Shown here: positions 985 to 64,000 of the stretch, piece after piece
Layout of the letters: the number at the start of each line of letters is the position of its first letter
Position numbering within the stretch: the first letter of the stretch is position 1
Translations under genes and position numbers: made by a program
The notes under the pieces: model-generated
Database searches by the model: none
Seen by the model: only the letters and a program-made list of their open reading frames with translations
What the model was told of the DNA's origin: nothing
From: Trypethelium eluteriae
Lineage: Eukaryota
NCBI GenBank assembly: GCA_051942245.1
Contig: JAVECL010000037.1
Span: forward strand, 1-64,000
Length of the DNA stretch: 64,000 nt
Reading direction: 5' to 3'

Positions 985-1160
985 TTTTTGATGTTGTAAC
1001 AAAAAACTGAATGGGTGGTGAAAGCTTGTAGATTAAGCTATGGAGGTGAGGACATCTATATACATGAACAACTTCACGAACCTCACTCGTAATCACGTGA
1101 ATAGGATTGCTAATAGAAAGGTAAATTGCCTTCTCACACATCAAATGCAAAATCACTTTT
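985..1160 (-). repeat. ~175-bp dispersed repeat, copy A (empty site for the palindromic element)
   Basis: Reverse complement aligns by eye with 10208-10306 plus 10490-10555 (gatgtgtgagaaggcaat, cacgtga, gagtgaggttcgtgaa, atgtcctcacctccata, tctacaagctttcaccaccc, acaacatcaaaaa). Confidence 0.9.
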
Positions 1161-4603: not shown

Positions 4604-4618
4604 TTACAGGGATATCTA

Positions 4619-4799
4619 CCTTGCAGCGGCTGGGGGGTTCCCCAACAGGTAATCAATACAATGTTACCTCAGTTTAACTGTTATGACCATGTTGGCCCAT
4701 ATTAAGGCGGTGTTAACATGGACCAATAAGGTCTTAACAGTGAATTCGAAATAACATTGGATTGATTACCTATTGGGGAACCCACCAGCCGCCGTAAGG
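4619..4799. mobile_element. 181-bp palindromic MITE-like element, copy 1
   Basis: TA-ccttgcagcggctgg...ccagccgccgtaagg-TA. Whole-length imperfect inverted repeat with the same length as three other copies. Confidence 0.9.
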
Positions 4800-4976
4800 T
4801 ATTCTTCCACGACGCACGAGGTCTCATGTACTCCGTCGTCGACGAAGCATACAAGGTGCCCAAGGACCGAAACAGTAGAACCGTCGCCACATGAAGCCAC
4901 ACAACTGTTACTTTTATTCGCATTTCTAGATCTGAGCGGTATAGAGAAGAGAAGTTTGCGAATTCTGAGATCTGTC

Positions 4977-10207: not shown

Positions 10208-10555
10208 AAAACTGATGTTGCATGTGATGTGTGAGAAGGCAATCTTATTAGCAAATTGGCAATCCTATCACGTGAATGGGAGTGAGGTTCGTGAATTGGC
10301 TATGTACCTTACCGCGAAGGGGGGGTTCCTCAACTGGTAATCAATACAATGTTATTTCGAATTTACTGTTATGACCATGTTGGCCCATGTTAAGGTGGCG
10401 TTAACATGGGCCAAAATGGCCATAACACTTAAACTGGGGTAACATTGTATTAACTACCAGTTGAGGAACCCCCCCTCCGCGGTAAGGTATATAAATGTCC
10501 TCACCTCCATAACTTGATCTACAAGCTTTCACCACCCCATTTACAACATCAAAAA
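10208..10555 (+). repeat. Dispersed repeat copy B, interrupted by palindromic element copy 2
   Basis: Inverted paralogue of 985-1160 carrying a 181-bp insertion plus an extra TA. Confidence 0.9.
10307..10487. mobile_element. 181-bp palindromic MITE-like element, copy 2
   Basis: TA-ccttaccgcg...cgcggtaagg-TA. The paralogous empty site is at 1061-1062. Confidence 0.92.
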
Positions 10556-10794
10556 CGCGAAGAAAAGAAAGTCAAGACCAACTCCAAACTCCAACTGAAG
10601 TCTCAAGTCTATAATCCGGCTGTAGGGACCGCAGCCATGCTGGGAGGAGTTTCACTATTAAAACCTCGGCTACTGTCGCAAAATATTCCGAGCTCGCAAG
10701 TGTACAACCGCAGGAGGATGTGATCGTGTCTGCGAGTTAAGGCACTATTAAGTAGTGCAATGCCGCACCAAAGAGTAGCATTGTCCATGATAAT

Positions 10795-10941
10795 ATAAAG
10801 TGCGGGTCGTTGACGCTAGCGACACTCCTGTATTGCTATTAAGCCATTATCCAGTCTTGGTTCTTGCAATCGCTGAACAGGCTGTTGACATCAGACTTTC
10901 GAGCAGATGAGAAGTTGATAGGCTGTCCGGGGTTACTCATT
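10795..10941 (+). pseudogene. Duplicated 3' fragment of the GMC oxidoreductase pseudogene
   Basis: Near-identical by eye to ~17471-17617 (gttgacgctag...cctgtattgctatta..ccattatccagtcttggttct...gatgagaagttgata). Confidence 0.8.
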
Positions 10942-16118: not shown

Positions 16119-17571
16119 TTGAAAGGACTTGATACTACTCCACCCCTCAAGCTGACCCAGGAAAACACGGATCTGAGGGTCCGTTCAACCGTTGTATACA
16201 ACGTCAGTATGCTAGCACTTCAGGCCGCAGTTGTCCTCTCCGCGAGTCTACTTGGAAGGGCTAATTGCAGACTGCCTTTCACCGAGTGCCGGACGCAAAC
16301 AATAGATTACCTACTAGTTTGGCTCGGTTCGTCGAAAACAGAGGTGACGATTTCCGCCGATCCACGATCATCGTCTACCGCTAAAGGAGATACGTGATAA
16401 CGAAAATAGTTGTCGCTCGAGTTCTCACTAACGACAATGATAAGCACGGCAACTCCGCAGTTGTTCTTCAGCATATAGATGGTAGTGGACTACCTTACGG
16501 CGGCTGGGGGGTTCCTCAACAGGTAATCAATACAATGTTATTTCGAATTCACTGTTAAGACCTTGTTGGTCCATATTACCACCGCCTTTACATGGGCCAA
16601 CATGGTCATAACAGTTGAACTGAGGTAACATTGTATTAATTACTAGTTGAGAAACCCGCCAGCCGCCGTAAGGTACGAATCAAACCCGGTGGTGAGGTTG
16701 TCGTGTCTTCCGGCGCTTACTGCTTGCCACGACTGTTATTTCTTTCGGATATTCGTTACTCTTTGGAAAAAGAGGAGCACGGAATGAGCCAGCATGTCAG
16801 TCTTGACGTTGGGCGAAAGCTGTATGACCACTCGATGGTGTTTCGGTACTGGATTGCGTCATGCAGGGAAAAGCTGGCAGCTAGGTCTCCACTATTCGTC
16901 GACCCTGCTTTCCAGAAGGCGAACTTAGTGGACTGGCTTGACACAGTTCCCATCTCCTATTCGGGACTTCAGCCGTCCATTGGGAAAGACGAAGGCTCAT
17001 AGGGAAATGATGACCACGGCTTACTCAAAGGTCCATGGTCTCATCGAATCTGATGTCCTTATCCTATGTTTGGTTACGAATGGATTCGATTCAACATGCC
17101 TCTCGACGAGACTCCAATCGTGACTTATCACATGCACGGCCTACCAACCTCTCGGGGAGACCTTTCGCTACAAGTATCAGACTCAACAGCGCTGCCGGTT
17201 ATCGATCCAAAGTATTTTACCACTGAAGTGGATGAATCTGCCCTCGAGAAGCCTACCGTGCCACCTCTCCGTCTCCTGTCGACTCGCCTGAAGGCCAGTC
17301 AATGATGGCCGATGGAACCCCTCCACCAGAACACGAGGAGCTTGGAGCAAACGCTTCTGATGCATCCATTGATCAATAACTCGCAATGAGCGCGACCTCC
17401 TTTTACCGTGCAGCGGGAATGTGTATCATGGGTAGAGTTGCTGCTAGCTCGCTCAATGCCATTGGGGTTTATAAGTTGCGGAAAGTTGACGCTAGTGTCA
17501 TACCTGTATTGCTATTAGGCCATTATCCAGTCTTGGTTCTCGCAATTGCCGGACAGGCTGTTGAGATCTGA
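16119..17571 (+). pseudogene. GMC (glucose-methanol-choline) oxidoreductase pseudogene
   Basis: Fragments in several frames: GEVVVSSGAY..PRLLFLS, VGRKLYDH, PVIDPKYF, SFYRAAGMCIMGRV, LRKVDASVIP. Stops, frameshifts and a MITE insertion; the catalytic His position reads Arg. 5' boundary approximate. Confidence 0.8.
16493..16673. mobile_element. 181-bp palindromic MITE-like element, copy 3, inside the GMC pseudogene
   Basis: TA-ccttacggcggctgg...ccagccgccgtaagg-TA. Closest to the reverse complement of copy 1. Confidence 0.92.
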
Positions 17572-18306
17572 CTTCCGAGTCGATGAGAAGTTGATATGCT
17601 GTCTGGGTTTACATATCTGGCTTTCTTCGAAGCTGGCAGGGGCATTGGGACATCATCTCAGGGTTTACAAGTGCCAGTTGCTTACAACTAAGAAGCAACA
17701 AGAACACCTGCAGTCGATTCAAAACCGATTAACATCGAAACATCTAGCGCACGTTTCATCCACCACCGAAGTGTCTCACATCAATTAAGATATAAGTCTC
17801 AACAGGATCTCCTTTATCCCACACGAGGTGTATCAGCTCGTTCTGTGACTACCCTACAAGGCAGCTCACTTAGCGTTTTGTACGACTTTGCGTGGTGAGT
17901 TTCGGTTCAAGCAATAGTAGTTTTCCTTCAAAGTAAACCTGTCCCCTCGGCCTCTCTCAAACCTGTTCTCGTGCTCGACAAAAAGCGAGTCTTTCCTACT
18001 ATATCAAAGCAGGGACCACAGCACGGGTATCCAGCCTTTTTGGACCAGGTCAGGCTTCGCCGGCTGTTATTGATCCCGGGGATGGATGAATAGCTTTATG
18101 TTTTGCTTCAATCCAGCACATATCCACATATGATACATAAGCAACACATTCCGCGGTAAGCTACCTTTATCTTGCTTTACATTCCCCGGATGTTTTACTT
18201 GATTTTCAGAACCGGTCAGATTCGTTAAATCAATCTCAAGTTAAATATTTGTAACACATAAATTGACAAATCATGAGTCCATGACGTATTTTGACCTTCC
18301 AGTCTC

Positions 18307-22117: not shown

Positions 22118-23628
22118 TTAATTATCGTTGACAATGCACTGGATTTTGAGGCCTGCACTGTGTTTGAGAACGCTTCCCATAATCTCGTGGGCAATACACG
22201 GATCCACCTGGCTCAGAGTCAGAGTGACACTGCCCTTTTGTTTGATTTCTTTGCGAGTTTCGCCATGGGCATAGACACTTGCACTGGCATTGTTCTCAAT
22301 GCCCACATGGTTGCTCGAGCCATCTTTGCTTCCTGGTATATCGAAGTACCCAACATCGAGTAATGCGGGATTCTGAAAGCATTGTTCATCCGTGGCACTT
22401 TTGGCCAACCATGGAGTTTGAGAAGCAGCTGCATCGGACGTTGTGGACTCTAATGCATTGAACCATGCTGTAGAGCCACTACAGGGCGTTGAAAGCCCCA
22501 CGTAAGTCTGGTCCTGTCTTGTAGTACCTGACCAGTGCGGCTCAAACACAGAATTCGTCGTCAAATGCGTCGCTGAAGATGTATGAGGCTGCTGAAAGTG
22601 CGGAATGCAAACGGGATCAATTCTGAGCTCTGAGGGGATGCTGATTTCCTGCTGAGTCATGATACCCCTGGACGACTCCTGAGCTTGGTGTAATTCTGAT
22701 GAGCCGGTATATTCACATTCAGAATTTTCATCACACGCATCCTCATCACCGTCGTCCTCTTCTCCATCACTACCCTGTGGTCCACCGTTCACCATATCGT
22801 CATCATCAAATGGCGGGCTAGGTTGTTGAGCTGGGACAGGGCGTCTAGGAAGTGTTTTTCGGCTCCGACGACCAAGAAGAAGACTCCTTGATATATTCAG
22901 CTAGTGTCACCGTTTGGCACAGGTTTTTTCTGGTCTCACCGATTACGAATATCGTGAGTGGAGCGGTCAGGTAGATCTGATAGCCCGATTTGCTTCCAGT
23001 TATTGCCGTATTTTGTGATGGCGTCCAGCAATTTTCTATCCTCTTCGGGAGTCCATGGAGAGTGCTTGAAGTCAGGCCCCAACACATGCTGCCATCGTTT
23101 TGCACACTCTGCCGCCGAATGCATGTTAGTTGAAGCGGACCGAGAATCATACCGGATGAGTACTTACGGTCTGCATTACGAGTTTGGACCATAGTGGCCA
23201 CTTGACACCATCTATGAGAGCTGAGAGTGAGTCTCAAAATCTGAACAGGGTTGCAAAGTCGAGGAGTAAGAGAATGAGAGGTAACGAACTTGAAGCCTAG
23301 TTGTTCAACTGCTTGCTTGAGACGCTCATCCTCTTCTCGTGTCCATGCCCCCTTTCTGATGTCCAGCTGTATCTTGGACCATCGCTTGCGGCAGTCTTTG
23401 TTGGTGCGATCGGGCAACGATGCAGCGATGTCGTTCCAGTTTTGGACAGTGCCATCTTCGCGCACTATGATACATGATGCAATGATTAGAATTCAGCCGT
23501 AACCCAAAGAAACATGTGACCACATAGGTCAGGAGCGGCAGCAGGCGATTACATTGAATTCGCACCCCATTCTTCAAAATATCATCTTCCTGACTGGTCC
23601 ACCATCGGCGTTCTCGCTGGGTAGCCAT
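22118..23628 (-). CDS. Three-repeat Myb/SANT transcription factor, likely cluster regulator
   Basis: Three Trp-spaced repeats across several introns: [60 protein letters not shown]. Acidic C-terminal region. Confidence 0.88.
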
Positions 23629-25148
23629 TGGCAGATCTTTTTAGCTGTTCCAGTTCCACGATCCGGGTAGCTATCTAAAACATAGCGTTACCGGCTTTAC
23701 TAGCAGACAAAAAGAACTAAAGAAGAACCAATACTTCCTATTATCTAAGTATCCTGGCGTCCAAGGTTTTTGGCTGTATACTAATCGAAATATCGAATGC
23801 TCAGCGCCAGGGGTTGACATTAGAAGTGTCGGCGCTCTGCTGAGAAAATGCCGACAATTTTTTTAGTCGCCGCCCGATGTAAGCCATATCTTACATGCGG
23901 TAAGTCTCGGATGGATTACCCAGGACGCTGGTTTGTGCATACGATGCTCGATATGATAGGTTTTCCCCGAGGCTCACCAAGGGCGATGGAGGGCCTTTCC
24001 AGCCGCACTCAATGCATGCAAGATAGGTAATCGTGCCGTCCCGACTTCCCCCTTTTGAGGCAAAGATTTGCGTACTGCTCCAAGCGAGGATCCGGTTTTG
24101 CAAAAATGCATCGCAAATCTTTGCCCCAAAGGGCCCAAAGGGAAGGACCGGGCCCTACCATGGTTAAGGGAGAGAAAAAAGAAAGGCGAATCGGTGAAGC
24201 TCCAGCCTTGCACCCTCGCATCGATCAAGATACTTTGCTTGGGGTCTTCATCCTGGCTGCCACGCGGTGTGAGCAACATAGCAACTGAGCGCGCGGAATC
24301 CGAGTTTCTTGGGGACATTACGCCCCACTCAGCTCGCATTTGCGGTCTACCTGCTTTACAGCGGAGAGATTAGTGTACCATTTTGGCTCTGCCCCGCAGC
24401 TCCTCATATTTCACCAATCTTTCGTCATTTCAGAGCGGATGCGAAGTACAAACCGCTACTACGTTCAGCATCTTCACGACACATATGAAACTAGTAGCTG
24501 AATGGCTCAATACAAGACAGTAAAAGTGGTTGGGATGAGAGGTCCCGCAGTGTGGTGGCTAGTGTCGGAATCGGATACTGATTTCTCTGTCGTAAAGACC
24601 GACCGGGACTCTACCGCGCATGAGGTCTAATCGTGTAATGCTGATAGAAGAGGGTTTGCCCAGCCCCATAAACCCGAGCAAATCCTTAGTGTGCCACTTA
24701 GCCTCCGAGTCAAGCAGCCAAGGACGTTGCAGATGGGCGCAGTCGGAAGGTGGATCCGGGAGAGCGATTCATGGCTTATAGGGACCCGACTTAATGCTGG
24801 TCCCTGTGTGGTTTGCTACAACTAAGCAGATTACAGTTGGTAGGACTATGCAGGGACAGCCGGCCCTTTGCAGCTTCAGAAACATTCACATTCCAGGCGT
24901 GCCCCCATGCTCCAATTTTGCATGGCACCCGGTGGGAGAAACTGACTAGGCTTTGAAGCGAAGCTTCGATCAGCGCCTGTAAAGTTTGTAAGCTTGGTGG
25001 TGCACACCTAACGATACCTCCTATCCCACCGATCCCTTCCTCTATTACTGTGGGTCGCAGCGCACGAATCATGTCACACTCAAGAAAGCAGCACGTGACT
25101 CATGCTTCATGCGTAGCAGCCTGGCATGGTGTAGGGGAAGAGATACTA

Positions 25149-25329
25149 CCTTACCGCGGCTGGGGGGTTCCTCAACTGGCAATCAATACAACGTTATTTC
25201 GACCTTACTGTTATGACCTTGTTGGCCCATGTTAAGGCTGCGTTAACATGGGTCAACAAGGTCATAACAGTAAGGTCGAAATAACGTTGTATTGATTGCC
25301 AGTTGAGGAACCCCCCAGCCGCGGTAAGG
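25149..25329. mobile_element. 181-bp palindromic MITE-like element, copy 4 (87-bp arms, 7-nt loop, 1 mismatch) in the Myb/PKS divergent intergenic region
   Basis: Arms 25149-25235 and 25243-25329 are reverse complements except G25225/T25253. Flanked by TA. Confidence 0.95.
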
Positions 25330-25675
25330 TACATGACGACCTTGCGATCTGGTCTTCATTTTCAAGCCTTGCACAGAAGCTTCACATTTAGGGTAAATTT
25401 TAATAGCACTTTTCTGCCAGTTATTCAGGTCCTTCATCACATATCACAGGCTTTCAGTCCAGCATATAGTGGAGGTCGCGACGCTGTGACTTACTGGATA
25501 AAAAACCCGTCATCAAGACAGACGGGAGGCGGATTACTTCGTACATTTGCCTTGAACCAGAAACCCTAAGATGTGGCGCGCTGATAAGAGACCCTGAGGT
25601 GCGCTGACGAAAGATGCATAAGAGCCGCCAAGAACGGCTCTTGCTTCTTCTCTGCCGTGCCTACATGACTCTGAC

Positions 25676-25687
25676 GGACCCGAGTCA
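25676..25687 (-). promoter_or_regulatory. Cluster promoter motif variant TGACTCGGGTCC upstream of PKS
   Basis: One mismatch from AACTCGGGTC, about 340 bp upstream of the PKS ATG. Confidence 0.55.
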
Positions 25688-26022
25688 AGCTGCATGCGTA
25701 TAGGACTCAGCCTGCAGCTGGACTTGGGGGCCGCCATCCCGTAGCGGTCAATTGGATGTCTGATGTAGCAAGTCAGTATGCTATCTTACCTTCGCCCACT
25801 GATGTACTCGCGTACCGATGACCGTTGATCAACGTCGAGAATAATATTCTCATGCACGCTTGCGAATCTGAATAGCGTCCTTTTTCAGAACAATGCCCTG
25901 TGATTCAAATAGCATGGATATCTTGTAGGCCAACACCCGAATTCAACTTTTTGTCCCACGCAACACTCTTGCTGTCCCTTCCTCTTAACAAGACCTCCTT
26001 TTAACAAGGAGGGATCTCCAAC

Positions 26023-29000
26023 ATGACTACGACATTCGGCTTCGAGACGGCTAGGGCCCTCCCACATGACGTTCCGCCTAATGCCATAGCAGTCGTCGGT
26101 ATGGCATGCAAATTTCCTGGAGCCGACTCCGTGGAAGAATACTGGCGCCTCTTAGACGCAGGAAAATCAATGCTGAGCAAGCCACCCAGCGGACGATTCC
26201 CGACCCATGAACACCCACGAAACACGGAGAGGACGGTGTATTTCGGTAACTATCTCGATGAGCTTGAAAGCTTCGACAACCGCTTCTTCAAGAAGTCCGC
26301 CCGCGAGGCGGCTTCAATGGACCCCCAACAACGACTTCTGCTCGAGGTTTCATATCAAGCCTTGGAATCTTCTGGTTTCTTCGGCCCCCGTGAACCAGAT
26401 CTTGACGTGGGTTGCTTCATTGGAGTGTGCGCGTCCGACTATAACGACAACGTAGCCAGTCATCCATCAAATGCCTTCTCAGCATTAGGAACTTTGAGAG
26501 CCTTCGTCCCAGGCAGAGTCAGCCACTTCTTTGGACTATGTGGGCCTTCGGTCGCTCTAGATACGGCCTGTTCGTCGTCTGCAGTGGCCATTGATGCTGC
26601 TTGTAAGGCGATCCTTTATGGCGACTGCAAGAGTGCCATTGCCGGTGGAGTTTCAGTCTTTACGAGTCCGTTTTTCTACCAAAACCTAGCCGCTGCGTCT
26701 TTCCTTAGTCCGACGGGCGCGAGTAAGTCATTTGATGCTGGCGCTGATGGTTACTGCCGAGGCGAAGGCGTTGGTCTCGTTGTTTTGAAACGACTTTCGC
26801 AGGCCGTCGTAGATGGTGATACCGTCCTGGGCACAATTCTCGCCACTTCAGTCAGACAAAGCAGTAATAAGGTACCTATTACAGTGCCATATTCCGCATC
26901 TCAGACCGGCTTGTACCGCAAGCTTCTGAGTACAGCTGGCATCGCTGCTGAGGATGTCAGTTACGTTGAAGCTCACGGAACCGGCACGCCTGTTGGGGAC
27001 CCCCTCGAATACGAAGCTATCAAGGAGGTATTTGGCGGCAAGTCAAGACGGGAGCCTCTTCATCTAGCCTCCGTCAAAGGGAACATCGGACACACTGAAG
27101 GTGCTTCTGGAGTTGCTGGTCTGATCAAGACCATTTTGATGATGCAGAACCGCACCATCCCGAGACAAGCTAATTATGTATCGGCGCATCCCAAGATTAG
27201 CCTCGTACCAGGGCAGATCTCCATCCCCACAGAGAACCTTCAGTGGAATGCTAAATCCCTCATCGCGTGCGTCAATAACTATGGAGCCGCGGGTAGTATC
27301 GCTGCAATGGTTGTCAAGGAAGCGAGGCAAGGGCAGAGTCTGCAGGCTACACAGACCCGCGGCCTGAGCAAATACCCCTTGATTGTCACTGCGAACAGTA
27401 CCAAAAGTCTCGGCCAGAACTGCGCCAAATTGAGGGACTTTGTGTCCTCGTTCCAGGGTGGTGCCGCTTCTCGTGCGAGTCTGCTGGCGGATCTGACTTT
27501 CAATTTGAGCGAGAAGCAAAATCGATCGTTACCCAACATATTCACAACAACAGTCTCCAGCTTGTCGGATTTGGATGACCAGCTTCGTACTGTGGCGTCG
27601 AATCCCGGTTTGCCACTCTGCCAAACGAATCCCAAGCCGAATCCAATCGTTTTGGTCTTTGGTGGTCAAACAACTCGATCTGTGGGCCTCAACAAGCAGG
27701 TGTACGAGACTTCAGCACTTCTCCGCAAGTACCTTGATGAGTGTGACGCGGTGCTCAAGGGCTTTGGATATCGGGGTATCTATCCTTACATATTTGAGAC
27801 GAAGCCCGCCGACGACGTTGTCTCGAACCAGACAATGCAATTTGCGCTACAATACGCTTGCGCTCAAGCGTGGATCGCCTGCGGTCTGAAGGTCGACGCT
27901 GTCCTGGGTCATTCTTTTGGTCAGCTCGTTGCCCTAACGGTGGCTGGCGTGCTCCCCCTGGTAGACGGTCTTAAGCTAGTGTACGGACGAGCTATTCTGA
28001 TGCGCGATCGATGGGGCTTTGAAAGAGGTTCCATGATTGCCCTTGAAGCTGGTCGTGACGAGGCAATGGGACTTGTCGCGTCAGTACAGCAGACAAACGG
28101 CTCTTCAGACTCTGGACTTGAGGTGGCATGTTTCAACGGACCGAAAAGTCACGTGCTCGTCGGAACTTCCGCCGAAATTAACGAGGCGTCCAAGAAAACA
28201 ACAAGGGCAAAGGCGAAGATCTTGGACGTGACCCACGGCTTCCACTCAAGGTTCTGCGATCCCATACTCTCCGAGTTGGAGAGGCTGGCCCAGGGTTTGA
28301 CATTCAACAAGCCTAAGATACATGTCGAGACCTGTTCCATCGGGGAGACGTGGCCTTCTGTCACACCAAAGCTGATAACGGACCACACTCGCGCACCAGT
28401 CTACTTTGAAGACGCAGTCAAGCGTATCGCGACCCGATATGGCGCGTGTACCTGGTTAGAAGCCGGCTCTCATTCGTCCGTCACTGGCATCGCTCGTCGG
28501 GCTCTATCCGATCAGAATGGCCAAACCGTCAACGATCTATTCTGTCCCGTTAACTTGAATCGAGATGATTCTCTGGGCGCCTTGGCAGATACGACCGTCA
28601 ATCTCTGGAAGCATGGTCACCACGTTCAGTTCTGGCCATTTCATCACATCCACAACCAAGATTACCTATCTCTGAATCTGCCTCCATATCAGTTCGAGAA
28701 GTCACGGCACTGGCTCGAGTTTGACCTTGGCACAGAGGAGGCATCTAAGTCAAACACTGCACCGTCTAAGACGCCTGAGCCGTCAGCCGTTGAACCGGAG
28801 CCGGAGCCAGTACTCATTACCTTTTCTGGCTTCCAAGACGCTGTTGATGGAGGTCACGATGGCGCAAGACAGGCTGTTTTCACGATTGACCCACGTTCGG
28901 AGGAGTGGAAAGCGCTCGTCGCCGGTCATTCCGTGCTACACGAGTCTCTATGTCCGGCGCCATTGTACATCGAGCTGGTTTTACGAGCTGCTAATCAGCT

Positions 29001-32000
29001 TGCCTCCATCAAGAACATTTCCTGCGCCCCATTTGCTCGTGTGGATGACCTAGAAATCCCTTCACCGCTGGGTATGAGTCAGGATAAAATCGTCCAGCTT
29101 GTCCTCAGCCCATCCGACCAAACTGGTTGCAAGTTCAATTTCTCTTTTCTTGCGCAGGCACGTCAAACGGGTCCTGGGCGACAGGGCACATTCCAAGCAT
29201 CCCAGCCTACGACTAAACATGCTATTGGAAGGGTTGAGATAATTCCAGCCCATGACACTGCTGTTACTGCTGAGCTCGAACGGACCAGGAAACTCCTTCG
29301 CCACATGCAGCAGAACCAGAGCCAGGACCGGAATCAGAAATTTGCCGATATGGCGGCGCAGCCTGGTGGCGAGGCTGTCCTAGGTTCGCTCGTGTACAAG
29401 GTCTTCTCCAGAGTTGTACAATACCACGACTTCTACAAAGGTGTTCGTAGAGTCGCCAGCACCAGTGACGGTGCAGTTTCGGCAGAGGTCTACCTACCCG
29501 AATCACAGCCGAGCTGCACCCAGGAGCTTATCTCCACTCCAGTGGCCATTGACAACTTCTTCCAGGTTCCTGGACTGTTTGCGAATTGTCTGGCACCGTG
29601 CCCATCAGACGAGGTCTTTGTCTCTACGCACGTCGATCGCATCCAGTTGTCACCCGAATTCGGCAAGCTGCAGGCCGAAGGGAAAGCCCGCACCTGGGAC
29701 GTTTTTGCGATGTCTACAGCATTAGGCGACAAGGAAAGCAGCAATGACATTTTCGTCACTGATCAGATCACTGGCCAGCTAGTTTTCGTCGCATTCGGTG
29801 CCAAGTTCAGCAGAGTACGGACTGCAGCACTTGCAAAGATTCTATCTCGGGCGAATCCCGGTGATGCATCTACGACTACGTCTTCTACGTCTGCTCCACG
29901 AGGTCGTACGGAGAATAAACCGGTTGTCTCAGCAGCACCTCCAGGAAAGCAATCGGCAGCCATCTCGGGCCAATTGCTTCATCCTCGTCAGTCCGAGCAG
30001 CAACAGCAGCAGCAGCCGTCGCAGAGGCCCCCATCTCCAAATAAAGCAGCTTTCGTTGAGAAGACCATGCCATTGGTACCCTCTGTCACCGAAACGGCGC
30101 CTCAGGTCGTTAGCGTGGAAGATGACTTACGCGAAATGCTCAGCAAGCTGACAGACGTCCCGGCGAATCAATTCCAGAGCCATGTCTCGCTTGAAGACCT
30201 TGGCATCGATTCTCTTCTTGCTACAGAGATAGTGTCAGAGGTTCGTGACTTATTCCATATATCGATAGCACTGGATCGTCTCCTGGAACTCCAAACCTTT
30301 GGATCTCTCTGTAAATATCTAGATGCCCATAAGAGCCAGCAGGTCCCTCTGAAAGAGTTCACCGTTCCTGAACCTCATGCAATCCCCGTCGTAGTTCCTG
30401 TTCCACCTACACTGCTCAGCCACGAAACCACAAACCAGCATGTCAATCCTGGCCATGAACTCGAACAGATCCCACAAATAGCCGGAATTCCAACGACCGA
30501 AGAAAACGACCAACATCAGGATTTAGTGTCGCAATTGGCGAGCCTATTAGGCAGCCATCTCGAGTGTCCAGCGAGTGACTTTGAGCGTTCAACGAATCTC
30601 GCAGATCGCGGTCTCGATTCTCTTCTCTGCATGGAACTTATGAACGACATGAAGACGATGTTTGGCGTCTCGATTGACCTGTCTGTTCTCGTAGGCGACA
30701 GCACCTTCGGCGACCTTTCCGACCTACTTGTCAGTGCGAATACGCCTCTTGGGCATACGGGCACGGCAAATTCAAGCACACCGGCCTCGACGCAAGCCAG
30801 GTCATCTGGTCGCACGACACCAGTGACGATTCCCGATCTTGGCACCAACGAGCCTGATGACTTGAAAATGACCACAAAAGCGCCGTCTCCAACAGGCAAT
30901 GTCCTAGCTAGCGCAGCTCGCGAATTTGAGGGCATCAAGGGTGATTTCGACAAATTCGCAGCCGAATACAAATTCAGTGACTTCTACAGCAAAGTATACG
31001 ACAAGCAGGCACACTTAGTCCTGGCCTACACGGTGGAGGCCTTCTCGGACCTTGGTGTCGACCTGAAGTCATTGAGATCTGGTGATCCGATCCCTAGAAT
31101 CAACGTGGTGCCAAAACATGATCGCCTACTTAATGTCTTGTACGAAGTCCTCCGTCATGGTAAATTGGCCGATTATGACGGTAGAGGATACGTTCGGTCA
31201 GATGCACCTATCGACATAATGCACTCCAGCGTCCTTTACAAGGACATCGTGGCACAGTTTCCCCAGCATGCCAAGGAGCACATGCTTTTGAACCTCTGCG
31301 GACCTGAAATGTCCAATTTCTTGAGCGGCAAGACGGATCCCCTCTCCGTCCTGTTCGGTACGAAGACGAACCGGAGCATTCTCGAGGACGTGTACAGCAC
31401 CGCTCCCATGTTTGTCATTGAGTCGCAGCTTCTCACTTCATTTCTTGAGAAGGCGCTGAGTACTTCGGTGCCCGGGCCTGACGGCAAATTCCACATTGTC
31501 GAGTTAGGAGCAGGCACAGGCGCAACGACGCAATGGGTTGTCGACCGTCTTGTCCAGCGCGGGATACCGATCGAGTACACTTTCACTGACATCTCGTCTT
31601 CACTGCTCATAACGGGCAAGCGCAAGTTCTCCAAATTCGACTGTATGAAGTACACTACCATCGATATTGAGAAGGAGCCAGAAGCCCAATATCAGGGACA
31701 ATTCGATATCGTACTCGCGACCAATTGCATTCACGCGACCAGCAACCTCCAGAACTCCTTGACCAACATTAACAAGCTCTTGCGGCCTCACGGCTTCGTA
31801 TCGCTGGTTGAGTTGACAACGAGGAATTACTGGTTGGACATGGTCTTCGGCCTCCTCGATGGCTGGTGGCTGTACGACGACATGCGACCATATGTGCTTG
31901 CGACTCCCGAGTTCTGGAACAAGTCGATGCGACAGACTGGATTCCAACACGTTTCGTGGACGGGTGGACACACGCGTGAGTCTGAGGTCTGCAGGGTCAT

Positions 32001-33173
32001 CACTGGTTTCAAAAGGCCAGTCGAGGACCCTTCCTCGTATCAAAGCATACCTCAAGAAAAAGTTGGCGATGTTGAGACGGTCGTCTTTGCGCACACCGAC
32101 AAGAAGCTCCCGCTACGAGCTGACGTCTACTACCCTTCGCCGTCGCAGACATCCGCTCACGGGACGTGGGTCGCCGGTACGGTATAAAGTCTGATTACCC
32201 ACCTACATGCTGGAGCTGACGCCGCTCTGGTACAGGCTTGTTGGTCCATGGAGGCGGCCATGTGATGCTGTCCCGAAAAGATTTACGGCCGCGCCAAATC
32301 CAGCTACTCCTCGACAACGGCGTTCTGCCCGTGGCTGTAGACTACAGGCTGTGTCCAGAGACCACAATCCTGGACGGACCACTCGTTGACGTCAGTAACG
32401 CATATGCCTGGGTACGAAAGACGCTCCCGTCCTTGAAGCTAACACAGACTAATGCCAATAAACTGCTCGATCCATCTCGAACGGTGGTCATTGGCTGGTC
32501 GACCGGGGGCACGTTGGCCATGTCGTTAGCCTGGACCTCTATACCACGGGGGCTCCCAGCTCCCGACGCCATTCTGGCCTTCTACTGCCCGACTGACTAC
32601 GAGGATGATTTTTGGCGCAAGCCCAACATCCCCGACCACTCTGACACGTTCGGAAACGAAACCTATAACGTCATCGACGGAGTTTTCCCCGCGCCCATCA
32701 CCTCTTACAATGTACCCTCCAAGATGGCGTCTGCTGGCTGGATTGCGCCGAAAGATCTTCGCAGTCGGGTGGTGCTCCACATGAACTGGCACGGGCAGAC
32801 GCTGCCTGTGCTCTTCAGGGGCCTGCCATCAGCTCAGAACGTGGCATCGCAAGATGCGGTGAGCTTCAATCATTTGGAACAGCCGCCAAGGGAGGACATC
32901 ATACGTGCCAGTCCTTACGCACAGATAGTCCAGGGCAACTACAAGTCTCCGACACACATCGTGTTCGGCACCAAGGATGATTTGATCCCATGGCAGCAGG
33001 GCCAGCGGACGGTGGAGGCGATGAAAGACGCAGGCATCGAGTCTGGATTTACGCTCGCGCCGGATCAGATTCACCTATTTGATATGTATCGTGATCCTGA
33101 TGGAAGGCGCTGGCGTTATGTCATAGAGGGGTATAAGTTTCTGCTTCAGAGGATAGGAAAAGAAATTGTATAG
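26023..33173 (+). CDS. Non-reducing polyketide synthase KS-AT-PT-ACP-ACP-cMT-esterase (methylorsellinate-type), no SAT domain seen
   Basis: KS DTACSSS, EAHGTGT, GHTEGASG; AT GHSFG; PT-like region; two ACPs (LGIDSL, RGLDSL); MT VELGAGTG. Intron 32177-32235 joins an HSL-type hydrolase (HGGG, GWSTGG). Confidence 0.95.
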
Positions 33174-51399: not shown

Positions 51400-51719
51400 A
51401 TGCCCGTCTAGTCGAAGGAAGACACATTCTGGGGTAAAGGTAGTTTTTGTCCCAAGCTTGTTCCCATACTTTGAAACTTTCCCTGTCACCATCAATAGAT
51501 GCCGGCATATCGACCATGTCAAACCCGTAGCGTATTTCTGGGACATAGTTGAGATGCGTCGCAGCCCCCAATACCTTGACCACTCCTGAAGCTCCTGTGG
51601 AGTTCACCGATCGAAGCATACTCTTCATGAAACGTCGGACCTTGCTTGCACACCTCCAGTCGTACCAATCTGATCCATCTACAAGCACGAAGACGGCATT
51701 GTATTGTTCCCGTAGCTTA

Positions 51720-52243
51720 CTCGGAGTCCTCTGGTCTTGGTCCACAGAAGGAGGTCACTCTTGTCATCAGCATTCATGGACGCAAACTCGGATCACTCTT
51801 TCGCCTTAGCGTTGTGTCTACCATTTCCCGTGAACACCATTGGCAGCCATCTTTTGTGCTGGTTTGCCATTTCCGAGCACCTTTGGGCTCACTTGGAGTC
51901 ATTTGGTCTTAGTCCACAGAGCGAGGCCACTCTCGTAATCAACATTCACGGGTGTAGACCCGGATCGCTCTTTCGCCTTAGCGTTGTGTTGATCATTTCC
52001 CATGAAGCCCATTGGCAATCGTATTTCATGCTGGTTCACCGATTCCGAGCACCTTTGAGCTCACTCGGGGTCCTTTAGTCTTAGTCCTCAGAATGAGGTC
52101 ACCCTTATCGTTGACACTCATAGTTGAAGACACCGTTCGCCTCAGCATTGTGTTCATCGTTTCCCGAGAAGACCATTGGCAACTGTCTTTCGTGCTGGGT
52201 CCCCAGTTCCGAGCATCTCTGAGCTCATCCGGAGTCCTCTGGT
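51720..52243. repeat. Tandem repeat, ~3 units of 172 bp
   Basis: Unit starts at 51720, 51892 and 52064, with a partial unit at 52228. Shared ttcgcctyagcrttgtgt, ccattggca and ttccgagca blocks. Confidence 0.9.
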
Positions 52244-53189
52244 GAGTACTGCTTTGATTCAATCAGGCGACCCCCAGCCTTGATGGACCAAGGTTTTTGC
52301 GCTGTGCAGGCAATACGTAACACAAGAAGGGTGATAATAGATCAGGAGATATGCTGGCTCGTTTTCGAGTGTGTACCAAATGAAAGCATGAGCCGAGAAG
52401 AAAAGGAAGGGTTGGTTAAAGCTAGACGCGTAACATGGTTTTGCGCCTCTGAGCCGGCAAGAGTGCCTGCTCGTGTCTATCGGTCCGGAGTGTCTTTGAA
52501 GACTCGTCGCTTCTAGATGTAAACAATCGCGAGCAAGGTATTACGGAAGCCGTGCCGTGGTCGTTACCGCGAACCATGCCGCGAGGAATTGTCAGAAAAA
52601 TGCACCTCCGAACTTGTGGTAGAGAGGAGAGTAAGGGCTATCGACTCCAGATAGCAGGACTAACCTCTTCGAAAGGGTCCCGGACCAGGCAACGACGTTG
52701 AAGCTCGAATTCATGAAGCTTCCGCAACATATCTGGAAAATAAAAGAGAGCACAAAAAGACTCACGTGGTTACTGTTACTGTAAGTCTTTGCCAATTACG
52801 TGAACCTCTTGCAATCCGTGCACACTCACTTGCCACGCTCCTTCCATCCGATGGACCTGCAATTTTTGTTGGATATATCAGTAACTGCGTCCCAAAGTTC
52901 AGACCCGAAACCCCTCTGAGCGTCTCCTTGAACTTCCAATCGAATCGGGCCAACTGCCTTTTAGTACCTTAAGTGATGTTGTTCATGAAGTAGATCCAAT
53001 CAACATAGCCTCGGAGGTGGTGTTTACCACATCTCACGCGCGCTCGGATCCCTTCATGTAGATCCTTACGCCCTGTAGTTATTAGTTCATTTCCCTTCGC
53101 CCTCACCTAGATAGGGAGGTCTATACAGCAGCCTGCACCTCGGGCGACCTAGATAGGTCAATTGAGTTCTTTCCTCCGATTCAGTTGTT

Positions 53190-54933
53190 TGTTACAACAT
53201 CAGCGACAGAAATACAACTTGTACCCAGGGAATGGAGACCTAAACTCTTACGACTTTGGACTCATTCACAATCGTTGAGTCGCAGTGGCTCATCTTTCAC
53301 GCACTGGTAGTGCGAGCGCGGCAACCGCAGTGCAAGGAGCTCGTACCACCTTCCCAAATATCCAATTTACGCTGGGTGTGGGTATCTGTGGTGCCATTCC
53401 AAATTACAAGATCTCCGACTCGAACTCCAGCGAACGCATTCATCGAGGTGATGTCATTATCAGTACGAATGTCCTTCTTTACTCGATAACGAGACTGCAG
53501 CATGGCGAAATTCAGATCAAAGACAAGCGACCGCATAGCCTATCTAGTCCACCAACAGTTATTGCGAATTTCCTCAGTAGATTACAAACCAGTGAATATG
53601 AGACGATCGAAGAAGACACAATAGGAGAGATCGAAGATGCAATTTCAAAGCAGAACAAAAAAGAGAAAAGATTCGGATGGCAACCAACTTATCCCCCCTG
53701 GGAAACGGACATTTCCTATCCATCAAAGTTCCTGCACGTCCATCGCAAGGACAGCACCGGAAAATAAATCGCTCCTGTGAAAAAATGTTGTCAAGAGTGC
53801 GCTTGTGATGGAGCTAGAAATAGCACATGTAAGGGCCTAGAATGCGACAAGTACTACGAAGGAGAAAAACGTTCGCTCCACGACCTTGTAGTACATTTTG
53901 GAGGCATTGCAACCGGAGACTGCGTTTTGAGATCTGCAAGAGACCGCGACATGCTTGCTGAGACGTATGGCGAAGAGTATGATCTAAAAGCATTCGAAAT
54001 GGAGGCTGCCGGCATTTGGAAAGATAGCAATTGCATTATAATCAAAGGGGTAAGTGACTATGCGGACTCGCACAAGACAGATGAATGGCGACCATACGCT
54101 GCTCTAGCAGCTGCTTCTTGCGCGAAGGCAGTTATACGCCATTGGGACTCATTTCCTCCCCAGAGGACAGCATGCCGTACAGGCTAGTTTTTCTCCTCTA
54201 TATATTGGGGCAGTCCCTCATGAGTTCTATAGGTTCAATGAGTCCTGAACCTATATTGAGTCGTTTGGACGCCATGCATATTTCAGCAAAGCCCGGCTTA
54301 TGGAGCAACCGCCCTCTCGCACCGAAGACTTTGAAGTCGACCGTGTGTCGGAAAATCTGTAGTGCATTGAGGCCTTGGCTGAGAGCTACAGAGAGCAGTT
54401 TTCTCATATTCTATGGATCAAATCAAGGAGACTGGCAGAAGAGTCTAGCTCATTCACTTTCCTTTGGATTTCTGGAGAAGCGTTATCCGATCATCTTTCT
54501 TGCCATAGATGCCAGTACCAACCCAGCAGAGTCATTAATTAACGATTTTGCAGTTCAACTCTTTGATTGCCTTCAGATCGAGAGACTGCCGGGTGACAAA
54601 GCAAAGCAGGAAGATGAAAATAGTCTACTAGGAGACTTGGGCGATTTGTTGAAACGGGTAACTCTACCAAGATCCCTTGTCGTTGTTGTTTCTGCATCGA
54701 GGCTACCGACGCCGAAGGATGCTGAAAGCATTGACTATGCTTCTCGATTTTTACATCTTTTGTACCAAGCACCAAAGGTGAAATTCCTGTATTTGGGAAT
54801 AGATCTTGGAGTCTTCCAAGCATTTATTATGGAGCTCCCGGCAGATAAATACTTCAAGATAAATCCTGATCGATGGCAACGTGCAGATAAAGTAGTTCTT
54901 GATAGTCTAATCGAAATTCCTATGGCAAAGTAA
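53190..54933 (+). pseudogene. PNP_UDP (nucleoside phosphorylase-like) NLR-effector gene, disrupted
   Basis: GDLNSYDFG, FPNIQFTLGVGICGAIP, RGDVIIS, VHFGGIATGD, FEMEAAG, IKGVSDYADSHK. In-frame stops at 53276 and 53765. 5' boundary approximate. Confidence 0.82.
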
Positions 54934-61722: not shown

Positions 61723-64000
61723 ATGGATCCTCTTAGCGTTGCCGCTGCTGTTGCTGGTTTCATCACGCTTGTGCTGGGCACCATTACCTATATGGAGGAT
61801 GTCTGGGAAGAGCCAGAGGAGCGGCGCGCCTCCGAGAGCCGCTTCAAGGATATCGAAGAGAACCTGGAAAGCCTTCTATGCCGCCTCGATATCTTTGAGG
61901 CTTAACTGAAAGATCAGCGAAAGTCACTGGCCCTTTCGCTACGCTTCGGCCCAATGAAAAACTCTTCGCTCGTACTCGGGGGAGATGAATGCCCCGGGTG
62001 GCGATGTCGAGGTCTTAAAATTCAAGTTGGACGCTATTTGCACCGATGTCAGGCAACATTGCCGCTCGAGGCTGATCCATCTTGTTAAGTATAGGAGCCG
62101 TTGGTCGTCGAAAAAAAGCCTTGAAGGAACACCAGGAAGAAGTTCTTTTACATATCAGACACATACGCGACAAGCTTTCAGGCGAAGATGCCCAGGTCAA
62201 CCACGAGGCTTGTTCTCACATCCTGGAGCTCAAAGAAGTCAGTGATCAAAAGCGGATTGTGGACATCTTAGAATGGATCTATCCATCTTCTCTGGAAACG
62301 CCCGCGGCTTTGGCACGCACCGCTATTCTGAAGAACCATAGTTTCATCAGTTCAGACAGCACTTATCAGCAGTGGCATGAAGATGCTGGCTCACCTTGGC
62401 AACTCAATTCCTACGGCAAGCCTGAGTCTGGGAAGAGTGTTCTAGCTCAGACTGTTCTTCGTGACTTACGGCAAAAGTGCGGCCACAGTGGGCCACCCAT
62501 CCTTGCTCTTTTTTTCATCACAAGAATCAATCTGGACAATTCATACAGACCGTCTCTGCAACTTATTGAAACAGCTCATCAATTGTCATCGACCGTTTGC
62601 CGCGCACATCCCCCAAGTCATCATCGACCTATGGGACGCCCAAAGGGTCTCTGGCAGGCACTGACGGAAGACGATGCCAGGCGCATTTTGTACGACGAGT
62701 TATCATCGATCCCGACGAAGTACCTTGTCATTGACGCCATCGATGAAGCAGAAGGATGCAAGTCGTCTATCGACAGGGAGATACGGCAACTACGACACCA
62801 CAATGTCGCTATTTTGAGCACAGATCGCCGCGATCCACGAGAACGGCATGATCAGCCATACTGCTATAGATGCGCTGATGGATCTTTGAATTTGTACTGG
62901 CTGTGCGATCAGTGCATGGGTCACTTTCAAATAAATAGCATAGAGCTGTGTCAGAATTGCTATAAAGTCAAGGGACTTCGCTGTCGTGATACCAGTCACG
63001 AAATGAAGCCACCACTGAAACTCAATATCGAAATGAAGACATCTCAGCAAGACCTGAAGCGCTATGTGGAGATGTTCCTTGACGACGAGTTCAACGGTGG
63101 TGATACCGGCGACGATGATGAAGCCATGTTCGGCGGACAAGACACTTTGCTTTCTATGCTCAGAAAAAAACTCGGGCCAGACTTCTGGGCCTCCCTACCC
63201 TTCAAGGTCAGCACTGCGGCCGATAGTAACTTCCTCTACGCTAAGCTTTTCATGGAACGGCTGAGGGTTCAGCCAACGTTGGACGGAGCTATTACTATGG
63301 TTCGACAACTGGATCAGGTTCACGGCACACTCGACAACCTCGACGAACAATATGGTAATATGGTAAGTCTATGTACCAACAAGAGCGACACGCTTGCTTC
63401 CCAAGTGGCCTATGACCACCTCGCACTCGTCTCGTCTGCCTTCGAGGTGCTCTCCTTCGTTCAATTGTCACATGCCAGGGCAATAGCTTGTGGTGATCGA
63501 CTGCTTGAGCATTTTAGCGGCCGCTTCTGCCTGAAGCAAGTGGTTCGTAGGGGAACGAATGGCTTACTCAATATAGATAATATCGGAGAAGCGGACTCTT
63601 TCCCAGTCACCTTCTTCCACCGTTCCCTATCGACACATATTGAGAAGAACCAAAAGCGACAGTTTCCTGATGCACACCAGCGCATGTTCCAGGCATGTCT
63701 TGCGTATCTCAAACTCGACGAGTTCTCCGGACCATTTGAATCGCTTCCGCGACTAGAAGAAGCGGTCAAGAAATACCTTTTTGTGTCCTGCGCTGCATCA
63801 TATTGGGGATTGCATGCCCAGAATGTCTCCAGCAACGTCGAGAACAGTCTGCTTATCCTGGACCTCCTCAACGATGCGAACCGACTTTCGTATGTGATGC
63901 AGATCGCATGGCACACTCGATCACGCGCCGAAAGCAGCTGGGATGTCAGCGGTGGCATCACACCACTGCATGAGTGCGCATTTTATGGACTGAAAACTTT
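61723..64000 (+). pseudogene. NACHT-ankyrin NLR-like gene with internal ZZ-like zinc finger; 5' part disrupted, runs off window
   Basis: MDPLSVAAAVAG N-terminus with a stop at 61903 and frameshifts. A frame open from ~62076 to 64000 (absent from the ORF track) encodes Walker A YGKPESGKS, Walker B YLVIDAIDE, FLYAKL, FFHRS, CLAYL, YWGLHA and the first ankyrin TPLHECAFYG. Confidence 0.8.

What the first reader, a model, noticed from the sequence alone, without database searches (positions are those of the whole stretch)
25149..25329. Both arms of a copy carry the same private variants: arm-to-arm homogenisation
Seen: copy 4 is 86/87 palindromic, and its one mismatch would be a G-U pair. It differs from the other copies at positions changed symmetrically in both arms (ggCaatc vs ggTaatc, acaaCgtt vs acaaTgtt, tcgaCCTtact vs tcgaATTcact). 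It also has the 'tttcga' segment on both arms, whereas copies 1-3 have 'tttcga' on one arm and a 'cctcag/ccccag' type on the other. Copy 2 has AG in place of CT near both termini. Copies 2 and 4 share ccttacCg and caacTgg in both arms, while copies 1 and 3 mostly have ccttacGg. Inference: hairpin-templated repair or conversion, or selection for pairing, keeps the arms concerted.
Basis: partly seen in the sequence, partly recalled or inferred. Interest (0 to 1): 0.72.

Follow-up and report, generated by a model that had tools for sequence, protein, structure and literature searches.

The report
Hairpin mini-transposon copying its own arms
This is one copy of a small hairpin-shaped jumping element in a fungus; in a minority of copies one half has been overwritten by, or swapped with, the other half, a known kind of DNA copying error that here can be counted across a whole element family.

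Summary
Copy 4 (25149-25329) is real: 86 of 87 pairs, against a family median of 75/92. It belongs to a 181-bp, TA-flanked fold-back MITE family of a filamentous ascomycete (168 centre-motif matches; 120 full-length copies analysed). The family's two arms differ at fixed diagnostic sites: 89 of 120 copies keep this L/R asymmetry, 12 are R/R, 1 is L/L, 9 have the centre flipped against the outer arms, 9 are unclear. Copy 4's left arm took all seven R-diagnostic bases plus two rare variants, a conversion tract. A Logan unitig from the raw reads ends where a homogenised left arm predicts (75 nt, not 108), which argues against an assembly artefact. Rare alleles are shared within copies 14 times against 1.4 expected. 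Centre flips gain no pairing and G-T mismatches show no strand excess, so selection for RNA pairing is unlikely. But arms mostly cluster by side (202 of 240), so homogenisation is episodic, and most of the 'private' variants are subfamily or consensus alleles. Best reading: polymerase template switching between arms, a known mechanism; some products appear to have transposed afterwards. An R-to-L bias (8:1) is only a lead. No autonomous partner was found.

The parts
25149..25329 (.). Copy 4 of the fold-back MITE, 181 bp, R/R type (both arms carry the right-arm block)
25147..25148 (.). Left TA, target-site duplication
   Evidence: TA at both ends in 101 of 120 copies; empty site of copy 2
25330..25331 (.). 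Right TA, target-site duplication
25192..25219 (+). Minimal conversion tract in the left arm (arm positions 46-73): rare C46 and C58 plus R-diagnostic bases 51, 52, 55, 56, 57, 60, 73; probably runs further outward
   Evidence: sister copy L003 keeps the L block
25259..25286 (-). Donor segment in the right arm (arm positions 46-73)
   Evidence: both arms of copy 4 are nearest to right-type arms of other copies
25225..25225 (+). Only stem mismatch (pairs with 25253): arose after the conversion or lies inside its inner boundary
   Evidence: Logan unitig 25209-25283 without differences
25236..25242 (+). Asymmetric loop that defines the element's orientation
4617..4801 (+). Copy 1 (with TA ends), canonical L/R; C26/A31/C38 subfamily with G7 on the L arm, parent type of the converted pair L022/L098
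10305..10489 (+). Copy 2 (with TA ends), swapped type: outer blocks exchanged relative to the loop, L-type base 73 on both arms
16491..16675 (-). Copy 3 (with TA ends), canonical L/R in the opposite orientation
1021..1100 (-). Paralogous empty site of copy 2's flanks: one TA (1061-1062) where copy 2 has TA-element-TA
   Evidence: (I11, I14)
26023..32187 (+). Context: non-reducing-type PKS reading frame starting about 690 bp downstream of copy 4; not part of the element

Best explanation
The element is a non-autonomous fold-back MITE with a TA target (Tc1/mariner type by its target site). Its masters have two arms that differ at 10 of 92 positions. Now and then, in a single copy, DNA synthesis (at a replication fork or in repair of an excision gap) leaves its template inside one arm, copies the other arm, and returns. 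Depending on the two switch points this makes both arms alike over a tract (copy 4, L116, L006), flips the centre against the outer arms (copy 2, L023, L094, L112), or does both in one event (L022/L098). A changed copy can serve as a master, so symmetric alleles become subfamily markers of the outer 50 bp. Shown: the family, the TA ends, the classes of copies, the tracts, read-derived support for copy 4. Inferred: template switching as the chemistry, mobilisation by an unidentified transposase, transposition of converted copies.
For: Copy 4's left arm holds all 7 R-diagnostic bases, each found in only 1-10 of 89 canonical left arms, plus C46 and C58, while its closest relative L003 keeps the L block. 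22 of 120 copies are R/R (12), L/L (1) or swapped (9); strictly scored 15 of 77; in the young core subfamily, where L/R is the majority state, 8 of 44 (5 R/R, 3 swapped), 1 unclear. Alleles found in at most 5 copies are shared by both arms of one copy 14 times against 1.37 (max 7) in 2000 cross-copy pairings; all alleles 180 against 64. L022 and L098, at different sites, both have G7 on the arm opposite to that of their relatives L036 and copy 1, plus the R block on both arms: the outcome of one inter-strand switch, inherited twice. Copy 2's flanks are contiguous in the empty site, so its swap was not a crossover between two loci. Logan unitig 25209-25283, 75 nt, no differences, depth 256 against about 400 in the flanks; a simulated k = 31 graph gives exactly this unitig with the homogenised left arm and 108 nt without it; the deciding 30-mer occurs in the assembly only in copy 4's two arms. 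Arm homogenisation and spacer inversion are the two described products of template switching (PMC8604942, passages; PMC10710096, passages); left-to-right TIR switching in gap repair was proposed for the birth of the MITE Goblin (PMC3814204, passages).
Against: Most copies (89 of 120) show no exchange of the diagnostic block and arms cluster by side. The sequence outcome does not tell template switching from recombination between arms. Some R/R copies of older subfamilies may be ancestral rather than converted: intermediate blocks exist (9 unclear copies). The 120 copies are not a random sample (top hits to copies 4 and 3, two picked by symmetric patterns), and some 50 copies were not fetched. 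The read check rests on one run that may be the source of the assembly, on contigs rather than raw reads, and covers copy 4 only. No autonomous partner was found.
Confidence: 0.65

Rival explanations
1. The same arm-to-arm exchange, but by breakage and recombinational repair: the hairpin or cruciform is cut or mismatch-corrected, and one arm is repaired on the other, with crossover giving the flips.
For: Gives the same products; the stem is very stable. Repair of one TIR on the other was proposed for Galileo (PMC3573991, passages), and TIRs of one Galileo copy are closer than TIRs of different copies in a table of PMC2775673 (passage).
Against: Galileo TIRs are hundreds of bases long; here arms are 90 bp, about 82% alike, with a 7-nt loop, short for homologous recombination (own knowledge, not tested). 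Pure mismatch correction of a hairpin cannot flip the centre (9 of 120 copies) and should not move six mixed base changes all one way.
Confidence: 0.18
2. Conversion between different copies (ectopic), not between arms: an arm is overwritten by an arm of another copy.
For: L117's left arm shares a seven-base haplotype with both arms of L116, 2.7 kb away on the same contig; L088's two R-type arms differ from each other (78 of 92). About 170 donors exist.
Against: Cannot explain alleles found on both arms of one copy and in no other of 118 (L006 C47, L013 C33, L140 G27), nor copy 4's 30-mer, which is nowhere else in the assembly. Likely a minor added process.
Confidence: 0.07
3. Assembly or library artefact: fold-back reads or polishing made the arms of copy 4 and the like identical.
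For: Fragmented assembly (1369 contigs); only one run holds the DNA and may be its source; depth of the central unitig is lower than in the flanks.
Against: An independent k = 31 assembly breaks where the homogenised arm predicts; arms of several R/R copies have re-diverged (78-86 of 92); the same converted layout sits at two loci (L022/L098, 82 and 81 of 92); partial tracts and swaps are not what collapse would give.
Confidence: 0.05
4. Selection for a base-paired RNA or single-stranded DNA fixes compensatory changes one by one.
For: Strong apparent covariation in the outer 50 bp (163 symmetric cells against 55 expected); symmetric ends may favour mobilisation by the transposase.
Against: Changes come as contiguous multi-base tracts; swaps gain nothing; no significant G-T excess on either strand; median 8 mismatches at non-diagnostic sites are tolerated; no Rfam match in the window. 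Selection may sort masters but does not create the symmetry. Expression was not tested.
Confidence: 0.05

Closest known systems
Template switching at quasi-palindromes (Ripley model; yeast IR homogenisation and spacer inversion, PMC8604942; TSMs in miRNA and rRNA genes, PMC10710096, bioRxiv 10.1101/2021.04.15.439925)
   Same: Two products seen here, arm homogenisation and inversion of the centre, and their combination in one event; apparent compensatory changes made in one step.
   Different: Those studies follow short repeats (arms of 7-16 bp in yeast genes) at single orthologous loci, and the miRNA study left out repeat-overlapping events from its polymorphism data; here arms are 90 bp and about 120 paralogous copies give a census, with products that can be multiplied by transposition.
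Whole-element fold-back MITEs with TA target (Stowaway-like; Goblin of Aedes; CeleTc2, PALTA, Hairpin as listed in PMC3814204)
   Same: Short, non-coding, high copy, TA ends, whole element a hairpin; Goblin's birth was explained by a switch from the left to the right TIR during gap repair.
   Different: That model concerns the one-time origin of a family; here exchange recurs in extant copies. No autonomous parent was found here, and no sequence comparison with those families could be run (no Repbase or Dfam among the tools).
Galileo fold-back transposon of Drosophila (PMC3573991, PMC2775673)
   Same: TIR-to-TIR exchange within one copy and chimeric copies, proposed as a source of subfamilies.
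   Different: P-superfamily, 7-bp target duplication, TIRs of hundreds of bases to over 1 kb, explained by non-allelic recombination; its chimeras have non-matching flanks, whereas copy 2 here has matching flanks.

Membership tests
MITE (non-autonomous class II element) | Short, non-coding, with terminal inverted repeats | tested here: met
   181 bp, fold-back over its whole length; too short to encode a transposase
MITE (non-autonomous class II element) | High copy number, dispersed, uniform length, unrelated flanks | tested here: met
   168 centre matches, control 0; 127 places fetched, 118 full length, mostly 183-186 bp with TA; flank similarities limited to a few local repeats
Tc1/mariner-type (Stowaway-like) MITE | TA target-site duplication | tested here: met
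   TA at both ends in 101 of 120, at one end or both in 113; one paralogous empty site has one TA fewer, though it lies in a short TA run
Tc1/mariner-type (Stowaway-like) MITE | TIR shared with an autonomous Tc1/mariner element | tested here: inconclusive
   No element with these ends around 30 DDE_1, 6 DDE_3 and 17 HTH_Tnp_Tc5 matches, 1.5 kb of flank each; assembly fragmented; ends far apart could not be searched
Template-switch mutation | Multi-base change in one arm templated by the other arm | tested here: met
   copy 4, L116, L006, L013, L140
Template-switch mutation | Spacer or centre inversion as twin product, alone or with conversion | tested here: met
   9 swapped copies of 120; L022/L098 against L036 and copy 1
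Template-switch mutation | Made during DNA synthesis, independent of homologous recombination | not testable with these tools
   needs genetics
Structured RNA family | Match to a curated family; strand-specific tolerance of G-U | tested here: not met
   0 Rfam matches in the window; 309 G-T against 355 A-C
RIP-mutated repeat | Excess of C-to-T, mostly at CpA | tested here: not met
   T>C 610, C>T 594; C>T per site CA 8.1, CT 9.3, CG 8.4, CC 5.0 in 118 copies

The most novel reading that the evidence does not exclude
Arm-to-arm copying here is coupled to transposition (repair of the excision gap) and is polar, right arm onto left (8 R/R against 1 L/L genome-wide; markers A31, C38, G23 found alone more often on the right arm). 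It would then be the engine that keeps a DNA transposon's two TIRs identical and founds its subfamilies, caught in action in about a fifth of copies, making the question of how both TIRs change together directly measurable.
Probability: 0.2. Interest if true: 0.65.

Novelty: new member of a known kind. Interest (0 to 1): 0.42.

Why it matters
The mechanism and the element type are both known, so this is not a new system. Its value is as a natural data set: one family shows unconverted, converted, flipped and partly converted copies side by side, and suggests that symmetric TIR changes of MITE subfamilies arise in one step. My searches of the paper library turned up no census of arm conversion in a MITE family; that library lacks most subscription journals.

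Tried and rejected
Autonomous partner: none around DDE_1 (30 matches), DDE_3 (6) or HTH_Tnp_Tc5 (17) loci, which have other TIRs; a solo 59-bp end on C785 leads to no second end within 2.8 kb. Relatives elsewhere: none in metagenome contigs by one 25-nt pattern or in phages; no related fungal genomes are on offer, so orthologous alleles could not be compared. Rfam: nothing. RIP as source of symmetric changes: rejected by the spectrum. G-U wobble as a sign of RNA selection: rejected. 'Private' status of C34, C57, AG14-15, C9, caacTgg: rejected. Long flanking duplication at L110: it sits between two units of an old tandem repeat, not a target duplication. The cross-copy null for single-copy alleles is zero by construction and was not used; the class of at most 5 copies was. 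Earlier scan notes: nothing by sequence or words; one note on an intron palindrome elsewhere in this genome, not examined and not used. RNA runs were not searched. A giant-virus preprint (passages) was not relevant. Supplements of the cited papers were not read; they could hold cases of conversion inside transposons.

Full report
Setting. The window is the first 64 kb of contig C37 of a 29-Mb assembly in 1369 contigs. It encodes a polyketide synthase, an adenylation-reductase protein, a prenyltransferase and a HET protein; named relatives of the prenyltransferase are from filamentous ascomycetes. Four 185-bp palindromic repeats lie at 4617, 10305, 16491 and 25147. The finding concerns the fourth.

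The observation. Copy 4 pairs at 86 of 87 positions between 25149 and 25329, with one mismatch, G25225/T25253; with the terminal TA and loop edge it is 90 of 92, against 74, 77 and 72 for copies 1-3. It folds at -114.8 kcal/mol, z = -30. The described variants are present.

What the element is. A genome search gave 188 candidates, 40 scored; a strand-specific centre motif gave 168 matches with 0 in the control; an intact-ends pattern gave 73, of which one of the 50 listed is unrelated. I fetched 127 distinct places, 118 of them full length, and added two found by symmetric patterns, 120 in all; nine partial copies were left out of the counts. The set is enriched for relatives of copies 3 and 4 and is not random. 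TA stands at both ends of 101 of 120. The flanks of copy 2 recur at window 1021-1100 without the element and with one TA fewer, so the element is 181 bp with a TA duplication, with the caveat of a short TA run at that site. This is a non-autonomous fold-back MITE of Tc1/mariner target type. No partner with these ends was found around 30 DDE_1, 6 DDE_3 and 17 HTH_Tnp_Tc5 matches. There is no Rfam match and no RIP signature.

Arm anatomy. With each copy oriented by its loop, the majority left and right arms differ at 10 of 92 positions: a six-base block (51, 52, 55, 56, 57, 60), 73, 80 and 90-91. Median arm identity is 75 of 92. Of 120 copies, 89 are L/R, 12 R/R, 1 L/L, 9 swapped (R block on the left arm, L block on the right) and 9 unclear; scored strictly, 62, 8, 1 and 6 (a looser rule on 118 gave 90, 13, 0, 9 and 6). 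In the young core (44 copies, median 11 differences from consensus) 35 are L/R, 5 R/R, 3 swapped, 1 unclear.

Copy 4. Its left arm has all seven R bases (block plus 73), each carried by only 1 to 10 of 89 canonical left arms, and shares C46 and C58 with the right arm; its closest relative, L003 (18 differences), has the same C9/C34/C38 markers but an L block. The tract covers at least positions 46-73. Several variants called private are not: C34 is in 4 of 118 copies, C57 is the right-arm consensus, C9 is symmetric in 44 of 120, AG14-15 in 3 of 120. Only C58 is symmetric in copy 4 alone.

Artefact check. One run holds this DNA and may be the source of the assembly. Its Logan contigs include a 75-nt record covering 25209-25283 without differences, depth 256 against about 400-414 in the flanks. 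A k = 31 graph simulated from the fetched copies yields exactly 25209-25283; leaving out the outer left arm of copy 4 extends it to 25316, 108 nt. The word that causes the break occurs in the assembly only in copy 4's two arms. So the reads most likely hold the R-type left arm. This is one library, contigs only, one copy.

Family-wide tests. Alleles present in at most 5 copies are shared by both arms of one copy 14 times (10 copies) against a mean of 1.37, maximum 7, in 2000 cross-copy pairings; all alleles 180 against 64 (n = 118). Three alleles are on both arms of one copy and in no other. The excess is in the outer part: 163 symmetric cells against 54.9 expected at positions 3-50, 18 against 10.5 at 61-89; most are subfamily markers (C9, G23, C26, A31, C38), that is, few events inherited many times. 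Homogenisation is episodic.

Mechanism. Template switching between imperfect inverted repeats gives arm homogenisation and, when inter-molecular, spacer inversion (PMC8604942, passages; PMC10710096, passages; bioRxiv 10.1101/2021.04.15.439925, abstract and opening). Both products are here. The clearest case: L036 and copy 1 have G7 and the L block on the left arm; L022 and L098, of the same C26/A31 subfamily and at different sites, have G7 on the right arm and the R block on both. One switch out between positions 7 and 50 and back between 60 and 67 gives this, and two insertions inheriting it imply transposition afterwards (inference). L094 and L095 may be a second such pair. Copy 2 fits a switch pair in the other order (blocks swapped, L base 73 on both arms), and its flanks match one empty site, which excludes a crossover between loci at this place. 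Swaps gain no pairing, and mismatches are 309 G-T against 355 A-C (p = 0.08), so selection on RNA structure is unlikely. Sequence alone cannot separate fork switching, gap-repair switching (proposed for the MITE Goblin, PMC3814204, passages) and recombinational repair (proposed for Galileo, PMC3573991, passages; PMC2775673, one table). That 90-bp arms are short for homologous recombination is my own knowledge.

Polarity. Genome-wide exact patterns found 8 R/R and 1 L/L copies; the two patterns are about equally sensitive (61 and 60 matches on the expected arm outside R/R and swapped copies, of 118); p = 0.039 if independent, which they are not wholly. In canonical copies A31 is alone on the right arm 5 times and on the left 0, C38 10 and 4, G23 2 and 0, but C9 6 and 7 and C26 2 and 2. 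R/R may be ancestral in older subfamilies. This is a lead only.

Novelty. Fold-back TA MITEs and template switching are known; the family has no match in the collections I could search, and eight library searches showed no census of this kind. Verdict: real, largely explained, new member of a known kind; interest 0.42.

Noticed in passing
L116 (G000:C49:60156-60340) and L117 (G000:C49, about 62893-63077): L116 is the most symmetric copy (91 of 92) with about eight unusual bases on both arms; seven of them recur on one arm only of L117, 2.7 kb away, suggesting local exchange between copies or shared descent.
   Followed up: partly
window 4617-25331 and G000:C37:78236: Four copies in 21 kb (five on this 83-kb contig) against about one per 170 kb genome-wide; similar clusters on C77 (four in 3.5 kb) and C1309. 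Local hopping or tolerance near secondary-metabolite clusters.
   Followed up: no
window 23628-26023: Copy 4 lies in the divergent intergenic region between a Myb-domain gene and the PKS, about 690 bp before the PKS start; an effect on cluster regulation was not tested.
   Followed up: no
window 24051-24133: A second, smaller inverted repeat (22-nt arms, 91% complementary, 39 nt apart) in the same intergenic region.
   Followed up: no
window 989-1160, 10208-10537, 53173-53202: Another dispersed repeat, into which copy 2 inserted; a flank of L089 resembles it too.
   Followed up: partly
window 51714-52243: Four tandem units of about 172 bp, about 80% alike, after the HET-domain gene.
   Followed up: no
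window 10794-10936 and 17470-17612: A 143-bp direct repeat, 85% alike.
   Followed up: no
L161 (G000:C486:14877-14967) and L117: Loop-adjacent mismatch at arm positions 90-91 partly removed; L161 is the only L/L copy and has R-type inner arms.
   Followed up: partly
L056, L057, L061, L064, L075, L077: Several Fot1/pogo-like elements with intact 39-54-bp TIRs and long open frames beside RIP-like degenerate relatives, while the MITE shows no RIP signature.
   Followed up: no
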